This document shows positions 3,063 through 57,851 of a stretch of 64,000 nt of DNA, in pieces. The DNA comes from Eledone cirrhosa (Eukaryota). The notes beneath the pieces were generated by a model that saw nothing but the letters and a program-made list of their open reading frames with translations, was not told the DNA's origin and did not search any database. Numbering within the stretch: the stretch's first letter is position 1; the number at the start of each line of letters is the position of its first letter. The DNA is taken from assembly GCA_964016885.1 (NCBI GenBank), contig CAXHJY010000353.1, positions 66,626 through 130,625 on the forward strand, written 5' to 3'. Position numbers and translations under genes: made by a program.

Positions 3063-3522
3063 TAAAAGAAAAATAATATTATAGGAAATACAATTATAAC
3101 AATATATATGAGACTTTAACAACTTAAATTACATATCCAGGAGGAAACACTGACACAGATACACACATTATATATATATATATATGTTTATATATATACA
3201 TACATATATATATATATATACTGTATATATATATACATACATATATATATATATAACTGCTCTGTAGAACAACTGATGTTATTACATTGAGCTATTTATC
3301 TTACTGGTAATAAGGTAGTAATAAATTACTGACCTTCACTGTTTAGGGTTTAAAATATACATAACTATAAAAAGTTTTAATATATACATAACCATAAATA
3401 GTATTTCTAATATTAATATTATATATATATATATAGTTATATATACATATATTATAAAGAGTCAGGACTCCGACGGCTGAGCTCTTGCCGTTTCAACAGC
3501 TAGTTCCAGACTGTCTCTTTAT

Positions 3523-3704
3523 AATTGTTTCTACATTTGGCACAAGGCCAGCAATTACCCAATGTATTACTGGTACTTTATTTTATCGACCCCGTAAGGA
3601 TGAAAGGCAAAGTCAACCTCGGCGGGATTTGAACTCAGATCGTTAAGGGACGTAACTATGCTGGAAAGCATGGCGTCCGACCCTCTACCGATACTGCCAA
3701 ATCC
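3523..3704 (-). mobile_element. SINE family 1, nested in a fold-back family A element
   Basis: Reverse complement of the consensus; TSD TGTCTCTTTATAAT on both sides. Confidence 0.85.
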
Positions 3705-9289: not shown

Positions 9290-10310
9290 TAATTGTTTAT
9301 ACTTTTGGCACAAGGCCAGCAATTACCCAGTGCATTACTGGTACTTTATTTTATCGATCCCGTAAGGATGAAAGGCAAAGTTAACCTCGGCGGGATTTGA
9401 ACTCAGACCATAAAGGTCCGTAACTCTTTGCTGCAAAGTATGGCGTCCGACCCATTGAAAATATATAGTATTTTCTTAAGTATACATCGGCTGAGTAGCC
9501 TCATTTACATAGTGAGCGAGATGCGGCTGGCTTTGAGTAATATTAAAAATGAAATAAAAATGTTATTTTTCGCTCTAGCATATGTATATTTATATACGAG
9601 TGTACGTATGTATACTTAGTTTTATGTATCAGCTGTAATAATTGTTTCTACTTTAGGCACAAGGCCAGCAATTACCCAGTGCATTACTGGTACTTTATTT
9701 TATCGACCCCGTAAGGATGAAAGGCAAAGTCAACCTCGGCGGGATTTGAACTCAGATCGTAAAGGGACGTAACTATGCTGGAAAGCATGGCGTCCGACCC
9801 TCTACCGATACCGCTAATCCATAATGAATACAAAGACCAAATTTGGGCAGCAATATGGTTGAAGTCTTCAAACAAAAGAGAAAAGAGTTAATAATTGTTT
9901 CTACTTTTGGTACACGGCCAGCAATTATCTCAGTGCATTACTGGTACTTTATTTTATCGACCCCATAAGGATGAAAGGCAAAGTTAACCTCGGCGGGATT
10001 TGAACTCAGACCGTAAAGGGACGTAACTGTAGGCTGCAAAGCATGGCGTCCGACCCTCTACCGCCACTGCTACTCCACAAGACAAAAGAGTTAATAATGG
10101 TTTCTTATATAGGCACAAGGCCAGTAATTTGGGGGGAGGAGAAAGTCAATTAAATCTACCCCAGTGCGTGACTGGTACTTTATTTTATCGACCTCATAAG
10201 GATGAAAGGCAAAGTTAACCTCGGCGGGATTTGAACTCAGACTGTAAAGGGACGTAACTGTAGGCTGCAAAGCATGGCGTCCGACCCTCTACCGCCATTG
10301 CTACTCCACA
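9290..10310 (-). mobile_element. Cluster of four SINE family 1 copies
   Basis: ~9290-9455, 9638-9822, 9890-10079 and 10093-10310, all on the minus strand. Confidence 0.85.
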
Positions 10311-11341: not shown

Positions 11342-11699
11342 AATAAAACAATGTATTTCTAAGCACTCTTTGGTTATTCCTATAATTATATATATATATA
11401 TATGAAACACAAATTTAAATTTTGGGAGCCAAAGCAATGCGTTAGGGAGAACGTTAGATCGCCAAGATAAAATAATCTTACCTTAGCAATTTTAACGATC
11501 GTTACATTTGTTTACTATTCAACAGTGAGTCAAGCAAGTTACACAATTTATGTGTATATATATATATATATATAAAAAGATGAATATAAAATGAAAGTGC
11601 TTTTATAAAGGAATTTATTAGGTATTGGCATATGTTTCTGTAACAGACGGAATACCTATGTATCGCTGCTTGCGTAATCATATAATATTAGCACGTAAT

Positions 11700-12140
11700 C
11701 GATAGCAAATGTATAATCAGGCAAGCAGAAGTGGCTTTCAAGTTAAGCAAAATCCTATATTTTTCTGTGGTACACAAAGAACAATTCTTTGTGCCCCTTT
11801 GGTACTCCCTCGAATGGTCTAAAATAGAACAATGGATAGAGTACGGGATGTTTTTATCCTTGAATTCCCACACCTTACTTGCAAGGGCCGTTGTTGTTCG
11901 TTTATCGAAGTGCTTAAAAAAAGCGACATGTGCATAAAACCTGGTTTTAAACCTGTCCAAAGGGGCGCAAAGAATTGTTCTTTGTGTACCACAGAAAAAT
12001 ATAGGATTTTGCTAAACTTGAAAGCCACTTCTGCTTGTCTGAACTCAAAGACCGAGATCTTCAGATGTTGTCCTCATCTGAAATCACATCTGATCTGTAA
12101 TTGGAGTGACATTCCTATCATAACTCAACCACCTTGAACT
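11700..12140. mobile_element. Penelope-like element GIY-YIG endonuclease C-terminal remnant, present as an inverted pair
   Basis: Minus strand FKTRFYAH..TTTALASKVWEFKDKNIPYSIHCSILD..YQRGTKNCSLCTTEKYRIL; plus strand QRGAKNCSLCTTEKYRILLNLKATSACLNSKTEIFRCCPH. CxLCxxEK...LNxxxE...CxH is typical of PLE endonucleases. Confidence 0.75.
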
Positions 12141-24803: not shown

Positions 24804-24945
24804 ATGTGTGTGTGCGTGTGCATGTGTGTGTGTGTGTGCATGTGTGTTTATCTACTTTTATATTTATTCTGTTTCCTTTCCTTCTTCCTTTTCCAGCCTC
24901 ACTTTCATATAGATTATATTTTTGTTTTTAAAATCCACAGGATTT

Positions 24946-25006
24946 TTTCATTCTGATGACTGAAAGCAAGTTTTGTTTGCTTTCAAGAAACCACTGGTAA
25001 ATGAAA
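24946..25006 (+). ncRNA. Type I hammerhead ribozyme motif
   Basis: TTTCATT-CTGATGA-c-TGAAAGCAA gttttg TTTGCTTTCA-a-GAAA-CCA c TGG-TA-AATGAAA. Confidence 0.75.
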
Positions 25007-25242
25007 TAATTATCTTATGTTGTTTATTATATAACTATTAAGCTCTGTAACCTACATAGAGCACTCTGTTTTCCTGGACCTTTCCGACGGAATTTCTTCA
25101 TTCATATATATATATATATATATATAACAAAGAAAGTGTGGTAAGGAACCAGGTAAGCCATAACGCACCAGTGTACTCGATACTTAAGGTAGTAGAGTGG
25201 GTAAGAGGAAAAGAGTCAGGACCCCGTCGGCTGACTCTTTAC

Positions 25243-25404: not shown

Positions 25405-25485
<81 letters not shown>

Positions 25486-25612
25486 AAGTTTCTATTTAAA
25501 TTGTTGGGATACAACAAGCAAATATTTTTATAACTGATATAAAGCACTCAACAAATAATTGGAGTAAAAATACGATATTAACAAATGGAAACTATATTTA
25601 TAAAACCATATT

Positions 25613-25677
25613 TATTTCATTATACATATTTCAAGGACACCAAGTTAAATTATGGTGTGCTTTCATCAGATAAAATA
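25613..25677 (-). ncRNA. Type I hammerhead ribozyme motif (family B)
   Basis: TATTTTAT-CTGATGA-AAGCACACCA..TGGTGTCCTT-GAAA-TATGTA-TA-ATGAAATA. Confidence 0.7.
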
Positions 25678-26144
25678 TAATATAGAGCAGTTTTATAAAT
25701 AAATATTGACATACCCTTAAAGAATGCAACCATTTCTGTTGGAAGCTCCCGGATAGTATATATATATATATTATAAGAAGTCTGGACTCCGACGGCTGAG
25801 CTCTTGCCGATTCATTGTTGAAATGGCAAGAGCTCAGCCGTCGGGTTCCACACTCTTTATAGTATAACCATACTCTACTACCCCATGCATCGAGTACTCT
25901 GTTGAGTAATGGCCTAACCCGTTTCAATCTGAATCCCTCCTGATATATACATATATATATATATATAGCGAAGGAAAAGTGGTAAGGAACCAGGTGGGCC
26001 ATAACGCACCAAAGTACTCAATACTTAGGGTAGTAGAGTGGGTAATAGGAGTAAGTAAGACCCCGACGGCTGAGCTCAAGCCGTTTCGACGGCTAATTCT
26101 GTACTGAGTACAGAATTGAGCTCAGCCGGGGTCTTACTTACTCC

Positions 26145-35956: not shown

Positions 35957-36019
<63 letters not shown>

Positions 36020-36057
36020 ATATTAATAAATGGAAACTATATTTATAAAACCATATT

Positions 36058-36123
36058 TATTTTATTACATATATTTCAAGGGTAACCAAGGCAAATTATG
36101 GTGCGCTTTCATCAGATAAAATA
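36058..36123 (-). ncRNA. Type I hammerhead ribozyme motif (family B), left arm of palindrome
   Basis: Inverted near-identical copy of 36245-36310. Confidence 0.75.
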
Positions 36124-36244
36124 CAGATTTGTTTTATAAATAAATAATGATATACCCGGTAAAAAGACAACCTTAACGGTTGAAGCTTCCTGGATAGCTT
36201 CAACCGTTAAGGGTATGTCATTATTTATTTATAAAACAAATCTG

Positions 36245-36310
36245 TATTTTATCTGATGAAAGCGCACCATAATTTGCCTTGGTTGCCCTTGAAATATATG
36301 TAATAAAATA
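36245..36310 (+). ncRNA. Type I hammerhead ribozyme motif (family B), right arm of palindrome
   Basis: TATTTTAT-CTGATGA-AAGCGCACCA..TGGTTGCCCTT-GAAA-TATATG-TA-ATAAAATA; 8-bp stem I, GUA triplet. Confidence 0.78.
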
Positions 36311-36441
36311 AATATGGTTTTATAAATATAGTTTCCATTTATTAATATATTGTGTATTTACTCCATTAACTTGTTGAGTGCTTTATATCAGTTATAAACA
36401 TGTTTAAGCTTGTTGAATCCCAACAAATTAAATATAACCTC

Positions 36442-36479
<38 letters not shown>

Positions 36480-36620
36480 TAGAAGCGGGTATTTAATTTG
36501 TTGGAAATCCGACAAATATAAATATAAATGTTTATAACTGATTTAGAGCACTGCACATGTTCCTGGAGTAAATATTCAATGATATTAAATAAATGGAAAC
36601 TATATTTATAAAACCATATT

Positions 36621-36683
36621 TATTTTATTATATATATTTCAAGGGTACCAAAAGACTTTGGTACGCTTTCTTCAGATAAAATA
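36621..36683 (-). ncRNA. Type I hammerhead ribozyme motif (family B variant)
   Basis: TATTTTAT-CTGAAGA-AAGCGTACCAAA..TTTGGTACCCTT-GAAA-TATATA-TA-ATAAAATA; compensatory stem II changes relative to the other family B copies. Confidence 0.75.
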
Positions 36684-37083
36684 CAAAATTTGTTTTATAA
36701 ATAGAGACATACCCAGGAAAATCATACCTTATCAGTTGGATATTCTCTGGATAGTGGAAATGTATTAGGAATTTTTCAAACTTATGGGGGAATATGCCAA
36801 TGAATATGTAAATAATTGAAAAACACCCGTTTATTTAAACGACTATTGAGAGAAAGAAGATAGAAGAGAAGAAGGACAAAATAGTGTGTGTGAGAGAGAG
36901 AGAGAAGAAGGAAAAAACCGAAGATGAATAAAAACTCATATAATGTTAATTTGAGGGAAATATATTCGGACAATATATATCTTAATATTATGTGTATTTA
37001 TATTAATTGTTTAAAATTTGTTTATAATATAATATTTTTCATTCGTTTAAAAGTAGATAAATAAATAAATAAATAAATAAATT

Positions 37084-37553
37084 GATGGGTATATCATGTT
37101 ATAGATATTCGTGCAAATGTGTTATGAGGGATATTGGTTTTGTATTTTATGTAAATAAATATGTATTTAAAATTGAGAATAATTTAAAATTAAATTAAAT
37201 TAAATTAACTAAGTTAAGTAAGAATATTTATATTTATATGATTTAAAAGAGAAGATAAGGAAAAAACTCCGGTTTTATTTATTTATTATAAGTATAGACG
37301 TTTAAGATACATTTAGCCAGAACATCTATACTTATTTTGACTAAATAGTTTCAGACTAACGAATAAATAAATAAAACCGGAGTTTTTCCTTATCTTCCCT
37401 TTTAAATCATATAAATATAAATATTCTTACTTAACTTAGTTAATTTAATTTTAAATTATTCTCAATTTTAAATACATATTTATTTACATAAAATACAAAA
37501 CCAATATCCCTCATAACTCATTTGAACAAATATCTATAACATGATATACCCAT
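37084..37553. repeat. Inverted repeat with ~200 bp arms
   Basis: GATGGGTATATCATGTTATAGATATT... / ...AATATCTATAACATGATATACCCATC; ~70 bp spacer. Confidence 0.85.
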
Positions 37554-38283
37554 CTATGTACAGCCAACCATGTTACTCTTCATTCTTTCACTATGTATAT
37601 ATATAATTCTGTCATTACCATAATAGAATTCGAGGAGCTTTTCATTCCGAGTCGGGCCCCATCGATACAGTTTGAATCCTGAGCTGGTCAATAGCGAAAC
37701 ACGCGTCACAACTCAATAAATGTAATGACAATTTAGCAACCCTCCACATTATTATTATTCTTGTATGTATGTGTATATATATATATATATAACGAAGGAA
37801 GTGTCGTAAGGAACCAGGTGGACCATAACGCACCAGAGTACTCAATACTTAGGATAGTAGAGTGGGTAATAGGAAATTGTTCAAGATCCCGACGGCAGAT
37901 CTCAAGCCGTTTTGACGGCTATTTCTGGACGCAGAAATAGCTGTCGAAACGGCTTGAGCCCTGGCGTCGGGGTCTTGAACAATTTCTTATATGTATATAT
38001 ATATATATATAATTATCTTTAAAAAGATTTAGGTCAATTTTTTTTGCAGAGAATTCGATTTTATGCGTAGACCAAAAAAATCGGACAACACATAAATATT
38101 ATCAAGACAGTAATTATCTCTAACCAGAAAGATGGAAATCGTGTCACACCGGAGGGTGGAATACTAAATTGAGTTCAGGATTTTCAATATTTTGGGAGCT
38201 GGATATATTTATATATGTATACTGTACCGATGGTACTCGACTCTGGAATGAAAAGCTCACCGGATTTTTGTTATTGTAATGAC

Positions 38284-53625: not shown

Positions 53626-54363
53626 ATACATATATATATACATACATATATATATATACATACATATATATATACATACATATATATATATACATACATA
53701 TATATATACATACATATATATATATACATACATATATATATACATACATACATAAAATGGCGACCGTTGTGGTCAGTGTCCGATAATCGGACGTGTGTAA
53801 TTACGGCTTACATGAAGGCAACATACCATATATTGGAAAAAGTTGAGCTACATTACGCGGTAAGATTACATACAATAATTCTACATAAGTGTTTGAACTG
53901 TAAGTGTGTTGTAAAACACCTATTTATATGAACGATACATACACTTTAACATATAAATGCAACGTTGTTATATTACATTTATAAAGAAATATACAAGTAA
54001 CGTTTTCGATTCAGAAACAAAAATATAAGTGTTTGAACTGTGAATATGTTGTGAATAGGTTGTAGATCACCTATTTATATGAATGATACATAAACTTTAA
54101 CATATAAATACAGCGTTGTTATATTATATTACATTCATAAAGGAATATACTAAGTAACGGTTCTTTTTGTTCTCGATTCAAACGATTCAAGAGCAACGTT
54201 TAAAACACAGTTGTAGAATTAAAAACTAACTGAAAAGAAATATTACTCAAGCTGTGAATAACTTTAAATTTGATTCTGACAGAACTTTGTCGTAACTTTT
54301 AAAGAAGATCATCGACTATTTTGAAAAATAAATACGAAATATTAGTCAATAGACGAACTCATC

Positions 54364-56142
54364 ATGGCAAAAAGTACAAGACTCCTTCGACCAAATCGCA
54401 ATTACAACCGTTGTACACAGTGGAGCTACGAGCTTAACAAAGTATTATATGAAGCATACAAACAATCTGAACCCCAAAAGTTCGGTTTTATGCAAAGGCT
54501 AAAAACTTTATGGAACTCCAAACACCCAGAATTAGACTTTTCTCCAAAGCATTTAAATGAACAGGCAAAACGTATCATTAGATGTAAATTGATACATCTA
54601 ACGGAATCGAGTGATACTACAAATACAGCCCTTGTAGACAACCACCCCACCTCCACTGGCAGACAAAGAGAATGGCCAGCTAAATCTAACAGTGAACAGC
54701 TCACCAACAATTTTGCTGAAATTCATCCCACTTCCACTGAAGAACAACGAGAAAGGTCAGCTGACTCTAGTAGTAATTGTCACCACATCAACAACGAGGC
54801 TGAAATTCATGACTCTACTGAACAAACAGAGCACCAAAAACTTGTGGGCTCCCTACAAGTGATATGGAATGATATGTTTCAAGAGATACACAGCCTTAAT
54901 GTGAGTGACAGACCATACAACACTAGAGTCAGTAAAGAACCCACTAAATTGGAATTGGAAGCGGTGAACGAAATAGCTGGCAATTATCTGAAGGCTATAC
55001 GATCTAAAGGTGTAGAAACGACATTTGAAACGCTTAATGTTTTGTTATATGTTTCAGCTGTCACATTGCTATCATATAACACACATCTAAAACCAAGCAA
55101 TCAAGATACAAACAGAAAGCCTGAACCAGCGTGGGGGCGAAATTTAAAAACCAAAATTTTGTCCCTGAGACGAAGTATCTCACACATCGCAGTCGTTATG
55201 AAATGCAACATAGAGAGCAACTTCACACAGCACCAGGAAGACCTAAAGAAAAAGTTAGAGAGAAGATTTGGAGATACAAAATTTAAAACTTTGAACTCCA
55301 AATTACACCAGTTGAAACAACAACTCACAGCTACAACAGAAAGACTAAAATATAAGTCAACAGCACATAAACGACAAGTGCTAAATAGATTGTTTGCCAG
55401 AGATCCTAAATCAGTTTATCGCAGCTTCGGTGGCAAAAGCTCAATCTCTGTAAATGACACCCCTTCAAAAGAACAGGTTGAGAGCTACTGGAGATCTGTA
55501 TGGGAAACGGATGACGGATTCAACAGACAAGCTAATTGGCTAAAAGAACTGGAACAGGACTACTGCCAACATGTCCAGACAAAACAATATGACATAGATG
55601 GGTCAATACTGGAAACAACTCTACAGAAAATGTCGAATAGGAAATCGCCAGGCCCAGACCTCATTACAGGATACTGGTTGAAGAATTTCACTTTCTATCG
55701 GCAAGATCTCATACGGCTGTTTACAGAAACCATTAAGGGCACACAAGAACTGCCCAGATGGTTATCAACTACCTCTACTCTCCTCATTCCCAAAAATAGC
55801 CAAACCACCCTTGCTAAAAATTACCGCCCAATTGCCTGCCAAAACATCATGTATAAATTATATACTGGGTGCCTTAATCTGTTCTTACAGGATCACTGTG
55901 CTACCAACAACATCATAACACCTGAGCAAGCTGGTGGAAAGAGGGAGGTGTGGGGTTGCATAGATCACCTACTAACTAACAAAATGATTCAGGAAAAAAC
56001 AACAAAGAATCGCAGAAACATGACTGTCGTGTGGCTGGACTATCAAAAAGCATTTGATAGTGTACCTCATGGGTGGATTGTTAAGGCTTTACAGTTAGCT
56101 AAAGTCCCACAACCATTGGTAGCTGCTGGTACACCAGTTTGA
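54364..56142 (+). CDS. Retrotransposon polyprotein, 5' part (N-terminal domain + start of reverse transcriptase)
   Basis: 592 aa ORF. N-terminus WSYELNKVLYEAY..SEP..FMQRLKTLWNSKHP resembles R4/Dong N-termini. RT motifs KSPGPDLITGYWLK, LIPK..NYRPIAC, EQAGG and WLDYQKAFDSVPH. Confidence 0.88.
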   Translation: MAKSTRLLRPNRNYNRCTQWSYELNKVLYEAYKQSEPQKFGFMQRLKTLWNSKHPELDFSPKHLNEQAKRIIRCKLIHLTESSDTTNTALVDNHPTSTGRQREWPAKSNSEQLTNNFAEIHPTSTEEQRERSADSSSNCHHINNEAEIHDSTEQTEHQKLVGSLQVIWNDMFQEIHSLNVSDRPYNTRVSKEPTKLELEAVNEIAGNYLKAIRSKGVETTFETLNVLLYVSAVTLLSYNTHLKPSNQDTNRKPEPAWGRNLKTKILSLRRSISHIAVVMKCNIESNFTQHQEDLKKKLERRFGDTKFKTLNSKLHQLKQQLTATTERLKYKSTAHKRQVLNRLFARDPKSVYRSFGGKSSISVNDTPSKEQVESYWRSVWETDDGFNRQANWLKELEQDYCQHVQTKQYDIDGSILETTLQKMSNRKSPGPDLITGYWLKNFTFYRQDLIRLFTETIKGTQELPRWLSTTSTLLIPKNSQTTLAKNYRPIACQNIMYKLYTGCLNLFLQDHCATNNIITPEQAGGKREVWGCIDHLLTNKMIQEKTTKNRRNMTVVWLDYQKAFDSVPHGWIVKALQLAKVPQPLVAAGTPV

Positions 56143-57851
56143 TCCTTAGAGGTGAGAAGGAGCAGGTTAGGACTGATAAGATACATTACCAGAAGGGCAT
56201 CTTTCAGGGTGATAGCTTGTCAGTGCTACTCTTCGTTCTCTCACTGAATCCACTATCTTACCTACTCAGGAAACAAGGTGGACAAAGAAGTGGGACCAGA
56301 AGTATCTCCCATCTTTTCTTTGTTGATGACCTGAAGTTGTATGGGCCAAATATCAATGACATCAAGAAACAATTGGACTTCATTACACAATTTTCAACCG
56401 ACATCAAAATGAAATTTGGTGAGTCCAAGTGTGCATATTTGGCAGTAAAACGTGGAAGAGCTGTGCCCTCCTCTAGAAATCTAGAGATGAACGGCCTGAC
56501 AATACAACCTCTGCAGTCAGGTGACAACTACAGATATCTTGGACAGGATGAGAATGTCAGATATGATGGACCCATAAATAAGGAGAGAACCAGAACTGAA
56601 TACCTCAGAAGAGTAAAGAAAATATGGTCATCAGAACTGTCAGCATACAACAAATACATTGCCCACAATACTTATGCTGTGCCAATTCTAACGCCAACAT
56701 TTGGCCTACTGAACTGGTCATTGCAAGAACTAAGTGAGATGGATGTTAGAACTCGAAAACTTCTCAGTGTTACTGGGAACTTTAACATCAATGGTGATGT
56801 GGATAGGCTATACTTCTCACGCAAGGAAGGTGGCCGGGGTCTAAAATCAATATTAACAACATATGAGACCCGGATAGTGACACTGAAGCAACACCTTCAA
56901 CAGAGGAAAAAGGTTGGCAACCATCTTGCCCAGGTTTATGACCATGAAAAAAGAAATATCATTAGAATAGCGACTGATCTGGAGGAGAGATATGGAATAA
57001 AGCCTGATATAAATCTCTCACCCAGAGAAATCGGAAGATCCTATTCAATGTTCAAACAAGATAAAAAAATTGACCAATTTACAAAAAAAGTTGTGCATGG
57101 ATACTTGAGGCGTAAAACACAGACCATAGAGGGGATAAACCACTCAAAAAGCCTGGCATGGAGTTCCGACAAGTTTATGACATCACACCTTGAGGGATAT
57201 CTCTATGCAATACAGGAACAAGAACTCCCTACCAAATATCTGCTGCACAAAAGAGGAGGGCCAGCAGCTGACAATAAATGTAGGCTATGTAAAACAAAGA
57301 TCGAGGATGTAAGCCACATTGTTGCCAGCTGCGAAAGAATGTCATCTCGCTACTACCTCCCCATGAGACACGATGGGATAGCTAGAACCATCTGGAACGC
57401 ACTTCGGAAAACAAAATTAACAACAAACGAGGAAGAATATATTGAGACAGATGGCACTAAGGAATACTGGTGGAACCTGAAATTAAAAACTGCCACCAAA
57501 TTAAAGCACAACCGGCCTGATATTGTAGTTTGGGACCACCCATTGAAAACGTGTTCTGTTGTGGAGATCAGCTGCCCACTTGATGTAAACGTTGTCAGAA
57601 AAATACGGGAGAAGGAGGACATCTACGGACCATTGATGAGGAGCTTACAAATCCAGTATCCAAGATACACCTTTAGCTTCATACCCATCATTATTGGTGC
57701 TACGGGTTATATACCAACCCGCTTGGACCAAAGTATGACCGAACTTGGATTTGCGGACAAAAAGCGCAGCTCCCTAATTCATAGTCTACAAATGGCTGCG
57801 ATAGCTGGCACCTTCAAAATATGCAAAATATTCTTGCGATTCAAGGGATGA
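56139..57851 (+). CDS. Retrotransposon polyprotein, 3' part (RT motifs 4-7, CCHC zinc finger, restriction-like endonuclease)
   Basis: [54 protein letters not shown] and [21 protein letters not shown]. Continues the upstream ORF in another frame after a small deletion. Confidence 0.9.

What the first reader, a model, noticed from the sequence alone, without database searches (positions are those of the whole stretch)
36015..36683. Family B: palindromic element with hammerheads on both strands and covarying stem II
Seen: a ~340 bp hairpin whose two arms each carry a full hammerhead, plus further copies at 36621-36683 and 25613-25677. Stem II changes are compensatory (GCACCA/TGGTTGC, ACACCA/TGGTGT, GTACCAAA/TTTGGTAC) while the core CUGA(U/A)GA..GAAA and the 8-bp stem I are kept. 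Inference: the ribozyme fold is under selection in the active family, and transcription from either strand gives a self-cleaving and/or long dsRNA (an ADAR/Dicer substrate, relevant if the host is a heavily RNA-editing cephalopod).
Basis: partly seen in the sequence, partly recalled or inferred. Interest (0 to 1): 0.75.

Follow-up and report, generated by a model that had tools for sequence, protein, structure and literature searches.

The report
Mirrored Penelope retrotransposon ends with hammerheads
The hairpin and its hammerhead-shaped RNA motifs are real, but they are the ends of a very abundant, already known kind of jumping gene (a Penelope-like element) that landed back to back, an arrangement predicted to trap the ribozyme in double-stranded RNA rather than double it.

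Summary
Observation confirmed: a 353-bp palindrome (150-nt arms, 97% complementary) with a type I hammerhead motif in each arm, plus copies at 36621 and 25613. The repeat is the pseudo-LTR (pLTR) of a Hydra-clade Penelope-like retrotransposon. A 23-base signature occurs 16,383 times in the genome. Long copies carry an RT and GIY-YIG-like ORF with the DKT, CxCX5C, CxxC and CxH motifs and sit in (TA)n. The window's three copies belong to three subfamilies. Across six subfamilies stem II covaries strongly (53 of 54 cells paired), so the fold is likely selected in the source elements. The palindrome is the documented inverted 5'-truncated PLE insertion: 39 of 45 head-to-head pairs have one tailed and one tail-less arm. 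Read-through RNA is predicted to form a -244 kcal/mol hairpin in which the hammerhead cannot fold. Stem III is a short palindrome, typical of hammerheads that act as dimers. Cleavage, expression and editing are untested. Short copies cluster at an initiator-like 5' end, a likely RNA start. The scan reported the same element type and end rule before, on other DNA of this genome. New member of a known kind; low interest.

The parts
35959..36013 (.). (TA)n target repeat, left flank
   Evidence: sequence
36008..36197 (-). Inverted, tail-less pLTR copy (subfamily S1); begins 1 nt inside the initiator-like boundary, ends at the short end (+108 from the core)
36058..36123 (-). Type I hammerhead motif of the left arm; one G-to-A change weakens stem II
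36198..36210 (+). Short rearranged pLTR piece at the head-to-head junction
   Evidence: sequence
36211..36444 (+). 5'-truncated pLTR copy (S1) with the 85-nt tail, long end (+193)
36245..36310 (+). Type I hammerhead motif: stem I 8 bp, core CUGAUGA 36253-36259, stem II (3 bp, C-C mismatch, 6 bp with one bulge), GAAA, palindromic stem III, predicted cut after 36302
36359..36380 (+). Small tail hairpin at the short end; a similar hairpin follows the long end in two 5' pLTR copies
36445..36477 (.). (TA)n between the two insertions
36478..37560 (-). Separate insertion of subfamily S2: tailed pLTR with hammerhead motif at 36621-36683, AT-rich 3' UTR, fold-back at 37078-37560
25481..25757 (-). Solo tailed pLTR of the youngest subfamily S3 (relatives 99-100% identical), from the initiator-like boundary to the long end, in (TA)n; hammerhead motif at 25613-25677

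Best explanation
The repeat is the hammerhead-bearing pseudo-LTR of a Hydra-clade Penelope-like retrotransposon, and the palindrome is one short insertion into (TA)n made of two head-to-head partial copies, likely two cDNAs copied from the 5' end of the element's RNA. Shown: the pLTR-ORF link, the clade motifs, the two fixed 3' ends, the one-tail rule and the covariation. Inferred: RNA starts at an initiator-like site about 83 nt before the hammerhead core; the element's RT-endonuclease nicks both strands of (TA)n; it starts copying at two sites 85 nt apart; the two cDNAs end at or before the RNA 5' end and are joined. The hammerhead is likely functional in full-length pLTR-ORF-pLTR transcripts, as a dimer or with protein help, but was uncut in the template of these copies. 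In the palindrome itself it is predicted to be locked in dsRNA on read-through.
For: Near-full copy L049: pLTR plus tail, 743-codon open frame, 3' UTR, pLTR. Of 20 loci picked by the endonuclease, 17 have the pLTR in sense orientation downstream (read). The ORF has RWR, DKT, CxxC and CxH motifs and the linker CxCX5C, matching PMC8557442 section 11. The model (pLDDT 83) matches RT folds including telomerases. 16,383 exact 23-mer matches against 0 for the control. 39 of 45 head-to-head pairs are tail plus no-tail; 39 of 43 classifiable, p=3e-8 against 0.5. 196 of 200 copies end at one of two 3' sites. 18 of 45 S1 5' ends lie within -3..+4 of the initiator-like A. Covariation. Hairpin -244.5 and -231.7 kcal/mol with stem I probability 0.
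Against: No phylogenetic tree with published Hydra proteins was built; clade assignment rests on motifs and comparison by eye with the supplement. Pfam finds nothing in the ORF itself; GIY-YIG in 2 and RVT_1 in 1 of 26 aligned relatives. The fold search does not single out telomerase: DRT2, retron and DRT9 RTs rank first. Copies were picked by similarity to my queries, which biases tail status and, for S2-S5, 5' ends. 4 of 45 pairs break the one-tail rule and 2 were unclassifiable. Isolated monomers do not fold much better than shuffles (z 0.27, -2.31, -0.98). The pair next to the core in stem II is A-U or G-U, not the usual G-C. The RNA start and the two-cDNA route are inferred from DNA only.
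Confidence: 0.9

Rival explanations
1. The palindrome arises by self-priming (fold-back) of one cDNA or of an antisense template, as proposed for Penelope, not from two separately primed cDNAs.
For: Junctions show short palindromes and template jumps, including the window's centre; both arms share minor variants; model stated in PMC3846280 (passages).
Against: Either arm can be the tailed one and both outer ends fall on the two fixed sites. Both inner ends often sit at the same initiator-like boundary. This rival changes the route, not the identity of the element.
Confidence: 0.3
2. A non-autonomous retrozyme: a small hammerhead circular RNA amplified as tandem repeats.
For: About 280-nt units, type I hammerhead with palindromic stem III, high copy number; retrozymes are linked to PLE pLTRs (bioRxiv 10.64898/2026.07.22.740005, abstract only).
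Against: The unit is directly attached to an RT-EN ORF. Among the first 100 of 16,383 listed matches, 11 close pairs are head-to-head and only one close same-strand pair occurs, of two different subfamilies.
Confidence: 0.05
3. A host-selected bidirectional ribozyme or dsRNA regulatory element (ADAR or Dicer substrate).
For: A near-perfect 150-bp duplex would form on read-through. PLE small RNAs are reported in a rotifer (PMC3846280 passages).
Against: One of roughly 1,800 similar short palindromes (extrapolated from 11 pairs in 100 listed matches). The arm differences look like ordinary decay: two G-to-A changes in the left arm and two at the (TA)n edge. The long ORFs that I scanned in the window are retroelement RTs or fragments.
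Confidence: 0.04

Closest known systems
Hydra clade of C-terminal EN+ Penelope-like elements (Craig et al. 2021, PMC8557442; e.g. Hydra-1_Obim, Penelope-13_HM)
   Same: RT then C-terminal endonuclease, DKT, CxCX5C, CxxC and CxH, no CCHH, (TA)n target, sense type I hammerhead near the 3' end with a short self-complementary stem III. File S1 and S2 list Penelope-13_HM with an inverted 5'-truncated copy and a hammerhead on both strands.
   Different: About 3.9-kb unit with a 1.3-1.6-kb AT-rich 3' UTR (most Hydra are under 3 kb); 85-nt tail (30-40 bp quoted for PLEs); hammerhead sequence unlike that of Hydra-1_Obim, with a longer stem II broken by a conserved C-Y mismatch; RWR where the paper gives RWK.
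[quoted passage not shown]
   Same: Type I, long helix II, small palindromic helix III thought to need dimers, families with compensatory changes, pairs on opposite strands 100-700 bp apart already noted.
   Different: 8-bp A-U-rich stem I with a further 12-bp extension in S1-S4; no G10.1-C11.1 pair and no extra nucleotide after A9.
PAc Poseidon element of the green anole (Frangieh et al. 2024, PMC11167929)
   Same: Two RT start sites that bound the tail; both strands nicked and extended; hammerhead cleavage not needed for insertion and protein-assisted.
   Different: Other clade; in PAc the tail and part of the hammerhead lie inside the ORF, here they lie before the ATG.
Metazoan non-LTR retrozymes (PMC7229834)
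   Same: Short AT-rich units with type I hammerheads.
   Different: Retrozymes are non-coding head-to-tail arrays; this is the end of a coding element, found solo or head-to-head.

Membership tests
Type I hammerhead ribozyme | Core CUGANGA, GAAA and NUH with stems I and II | tested here: met
   core letters invariant in the 17 aligned copies, which were picked by that core
Type I hammerhead ribozyme | Stem III closing the junction | tested here: inconclusive
   3 bp plus a 2-nt loop as monomer; 8-nt self-complementary or wobble-complementary stretch, A-U to G-C change in S6; not formed in predicted monomer folds
Type I hammerhead ribozyme | G10.1-C11.1 pair typical of canonical motifs | tested here: not met
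   A-U in 12, G-U in 3, unpaired in 2 of 17; typical but not obligatory
Type I hammerhead ribozyme | Self-cleavage | not testable with these tools
   needs an in vitro assay
EN+ Penelope-like element | Single ORF with RT and C-terminal GIY-YIG-type endonuclease between pLTRs | tested here: met
   L049 and others; RT fold; weak Pfam GIY-YIG and RVT_1 hits in relatives
EN+ Penelope-like element | Inverted 5'-truncated copy and one-sided tail | tested here: met
   39 of 45 pairs; 18 of 30, 6 of 25 and 13 of 25 loci with an adjacent inverted copy
Hydra clade | DKT in place of DKG; RWK motif | tested here: met
   SDKTNNLY and LRWR in L049; D122 K123 T124 nearly invariant in 26 sequences; RWK reads RWR here
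Hydra clade | CxCX5C linker, CxxC and CxH in the endonuclease, no CCHH | tested here: met
   read from translations against section 11 of PMC8557442
Hydra clade | (TA)n insertion and canonical hammerhead | tested here: met
Hydra clade | Phylogenetic placement with published members | not tested
   only compared by eye with Hydra-1_Obim in the supplement
Non-LTR retrozyme | Non-coding head-to-tail tandem array | tested here: not met
   (first 100 of 16,383 matches)

The most novel reading that the evidence does not exclude
The thousands of short copies and palindromes are cDNAs of the 5' 190-280 nt of the element's sense transcript: they run from an initiator-like start to one of two hairpin-marked RT start sites, one on each nicked strand, across an uncut hammerhead. 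This would be a genome-scale in vivo record that PLEs prime both ends of a break on sense RNA, and that each such event plants a hairpin that silences the ribozyme and could feed RNA silencing against the family.
Probability: 0.5. Interest if true: 0.55.

Novelty: new member of a known kind. Interest (0 to 1): 0.25.

Why it matters
As filed, it is one more family of a described clade, with a described ribozyme and a described insertion shape. What remains useful is material: six subfamilies with clean covariation give a natural hammerhead variant (C-Y mismatch in stem II, no G-C closing pair, palindromic stem III) to assay. The fixed 5' end and the one-tail rule also bear on the open question of how Penelope-like elements build their inverted ends.

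Tried and rejected
Rfam over the whole window listed only low-complexity microRNA-like matches among the 150 of 456 shown; over the locus no hammerhead family at E<=10. Sequencing runs: no RNA holder listed. Contigs of three runs of unrecorded kind were laid; their depth peak just after the predicted cut site coincides with the stretch shared by S1-S4 and is not evidence of cleavage. One search used a mis-registered structure and is void; one search is the corrected count. The single-sequence fold was useless (pLDDT 33). PDB sequence searches gave nothing meaningful. Pfam missed the ORF and its pieces. A cap-derived extra G at the 5' boundary was inconclusive: G in 12, T in 19, C in 10, A in 7 of 48 cut ends. 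ADAR-type A-to-G differences between the two arms were not seen; the left arm has G-to-A changes against the family. 5' ends at the cleavage site were not tested, because copies were collected through the core and the site is flanked by TATATATA. The host species was not determined.

Full report
Observation. The palindrome is real: arms 36008-36157 and 36211-36360, 97% complementary over 150 nt, flanked by (TA)n. A descriptor scan finds type I hammerhead motifs with cores at 36253 (+), 36115 (-), 36675 (-) and 25669 (-). A relaxed scan gives 6 window hits against 0-1 in each of 20 local shuffles. Rfam lists no hammerhead match over the locus. Each strand holds one sense hammerhead, in the arm transcribed second. 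The GUA triplet is a minor variant; most copies have AUA.

What the repeat is. The own genome is 3.0 Gb. Each window copy retrieves its own cohort of close relatives: S1 at 94-98%, S2 at 95-98%, S3 at 99-100%; 40 candidates were scored per search. A 23-base pattern covering S1-S3 has 16,383 exact matches against 0 for the reversed control. Some copies continue upstream into an AT-rich stretch and then an ORF. L031 reads: inverted copy, truncated RT, C-terminal endonuclease, 1.3-kb 3' UTR, sense pLTR, (TA)n. L049 reads: pLTR with tail, 743-codon open frame, 3' UTR, pLTR. Of 20 loci picked by the endonuclease, 17 have a sense pLTR downstream by my reading; 2 showed no pLTR match and 1 was not interpretable.

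Clade. The ORF has LRWR, SDKTNNLY, a CxCX5C linker, CxxC and CxH, and lacks CCHH. These are the features given for the Hydra clade in PMC8557442 (section 11 read; passages). Its supplement (part 2 and term searches) lists (TA)n targets, sense hammerheads, a family Hydra-1_Obim with a different hammerhead, and Penelope-13_HM with an inverted 5' copy and a hammerhead on both strands. Database relatives are 30-39% identical (24 hits among 7,998 scored). Pfam misses the ORF itself and gives weak GIY-YIG hits in 2 and RVT_1 in 1 of 26 aligned sequences. The alignment-based model (pLDDT 83) matches RT folds, telomerases among them but not ranked first. No tree with published members was built.

Covariation. 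Six subfamilies were found among the fetched loci. With one representative each and one bulged base of S1 left out, 53 of 54 stem II cells pair and 7 of 9 columns change on both sides. None of 100,000 column shuffles and only the identity among 720 strand swaps reach this. On 17 copies the pair-counting tool gives 97.9% paired (0 of 500 shuffles), covariation score 0.355 against 0.226, and 36-60% paired for slid controls; the number of pairs with two-sided change alone (5) is not significant, 69 of 500. The copies were picked by an intact core and are related, so these numbers are not probabilities. Stem I varies only on one side. A C-C or C-U mismatch after the third pair of stem II is kept in all six. 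The pair next to the core is A-U or G-U, not the usual G-C. Stem III is an 8-nt palindrome or wobble palindrome that stays self-complementary when it changes in S6, the form described as needing dimers in PMC4209133 (parts 1-2 of 4 read). Inference: selection acted on the RNA of the source elements, not on these inserted copies.

The palindrome. An adjacent inverted copy was found in 18 of 30 S1, 6 of 25 S2 and 13 of 25 S3 loci. Among 200 distinct copies, 104 end at a long end (about +190 from the core), 92 at a short end (about +100 to +108) and 4 elsewhere. Of 45 head-to-head pairs, 39 join one of each, 2 are long-long, 2 short-short and 2 unclassifiable (p=3e-8 for 39 of 43). Query choice biases the tail status of the central copy, but the rule holds from both sides and in loci picked by the ORF. 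The window's palindrome follows it. The inverted truncated copy and one-sided tail are described for PLEs (PMC8557442; PMC3846280, passages). Two RT start sites bounding the tail, with both strands nicked and extended, were shown for the anole element (PMC11167929, parts 1-2 of 4 read). A small hairpin lies at the short end in all six subfamilies (9 copies folded) and a similar one after the long end in the two 5' pLTRs examined; I looked for it after reading earlier notes of this scan.

5' ends. Of 158 ends between -150 and +75, 66 fall within -3..+4 of the A in a C/T-C-A-C-T motif (S1-S5) or an equivalent point in S6. For S1, whose query did not include this point, it is 18 of 45 (p=6e-15); S2-S5 are biased by their queries. 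PMC3846280 notes an initiator-like TCACT in a Penelope pLTR. I infer an RNA start. A cap-derived G was inconclusive. If so, the short copies are cDNAs of the transcript's 5' end and span an uncut hammerhead, in line with the anole result that cleavage is not needed for insertion.

Function of the hairpin RNA. Read-through from either side folds into a single duplex (-244.5 and -231.7 kcal/mol), where hammerhead stem I has pairing probability 0, against about 0.19 in the right arm with tail alone. The palindrome is thus predicted to silence the motif. Only transcription starting at the centre could free a monomer, whose stem III is weak. dsRNA formation is plausible if the locus is transcribed, but expression, editing and dicing could not be examined. 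The arm differences are not of the A-to-G editing kind.

Rivals. A retrozyme reading is disfavoured: the unit is attached to an ORF, and the first 100 listed matches hold 11 close head-to-head pairs and no array (PMC7229834 passages; bioRxiv 10.64898/2026.07.22.740005 abstract only). Self-priming remains a live alternative for the route. Literature searches were made; I did not find this family named in what I read, but Repbase and the rest of the supplements were not seen.

Verdict. New family group of a known clade, known ribozyme type, known insertion shape. Earlier notes of this scan reached the same reading on other DNA of this genome. Interest 0.25.

Noticed in passing
window 24945-25007 (+): A hammerhead motif of another family (core at 24953, stem III CCACUGGUA type); relatives in L007 and L057.
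   Followed up: no
window 54346-57848 (+): Two long overlapping frames (598 and 582 codons) that each hold half of an RT domain, then a zinc-binding motif and what looks like a restriction-like endonuclease (label recalled): a non-LTR retrotransposon with one frameshift.
   Followed up: partly
window 11625-11951 (-): Broken endonuclease of a distant Hydra-like element, 32% identical to the L049 ORF.
   Followed up: partly
window 37078-37560: Fold-back of the S2 copy's 3' UTR (arms 92-96% complementary), another 5' inversion.
   Followed up: partly
window 37790-37990, 25780-26100: Another abundant hairpin repeat in (TA)n (59-nt arms at 37869-37990); no hammerhead core found by my scans.
   Followed up: no
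L049:1424-1500, L063 5' pLTR: Second small hairpin just after the long end and before the ATG, resembling the one at the short end.
   Followed up: partly
L003:2627-2673, L129:2921-2967: Compact hammerhead motifs of further families with 4-bp stem II and short palindromic stem III.
   Followed up: no
window, about 20 places (e.g. 9637-9820, 3521-3700): A 180-bp SINE-like repeat that also sits inside the 3' UTR of L053.
   Followed up: no
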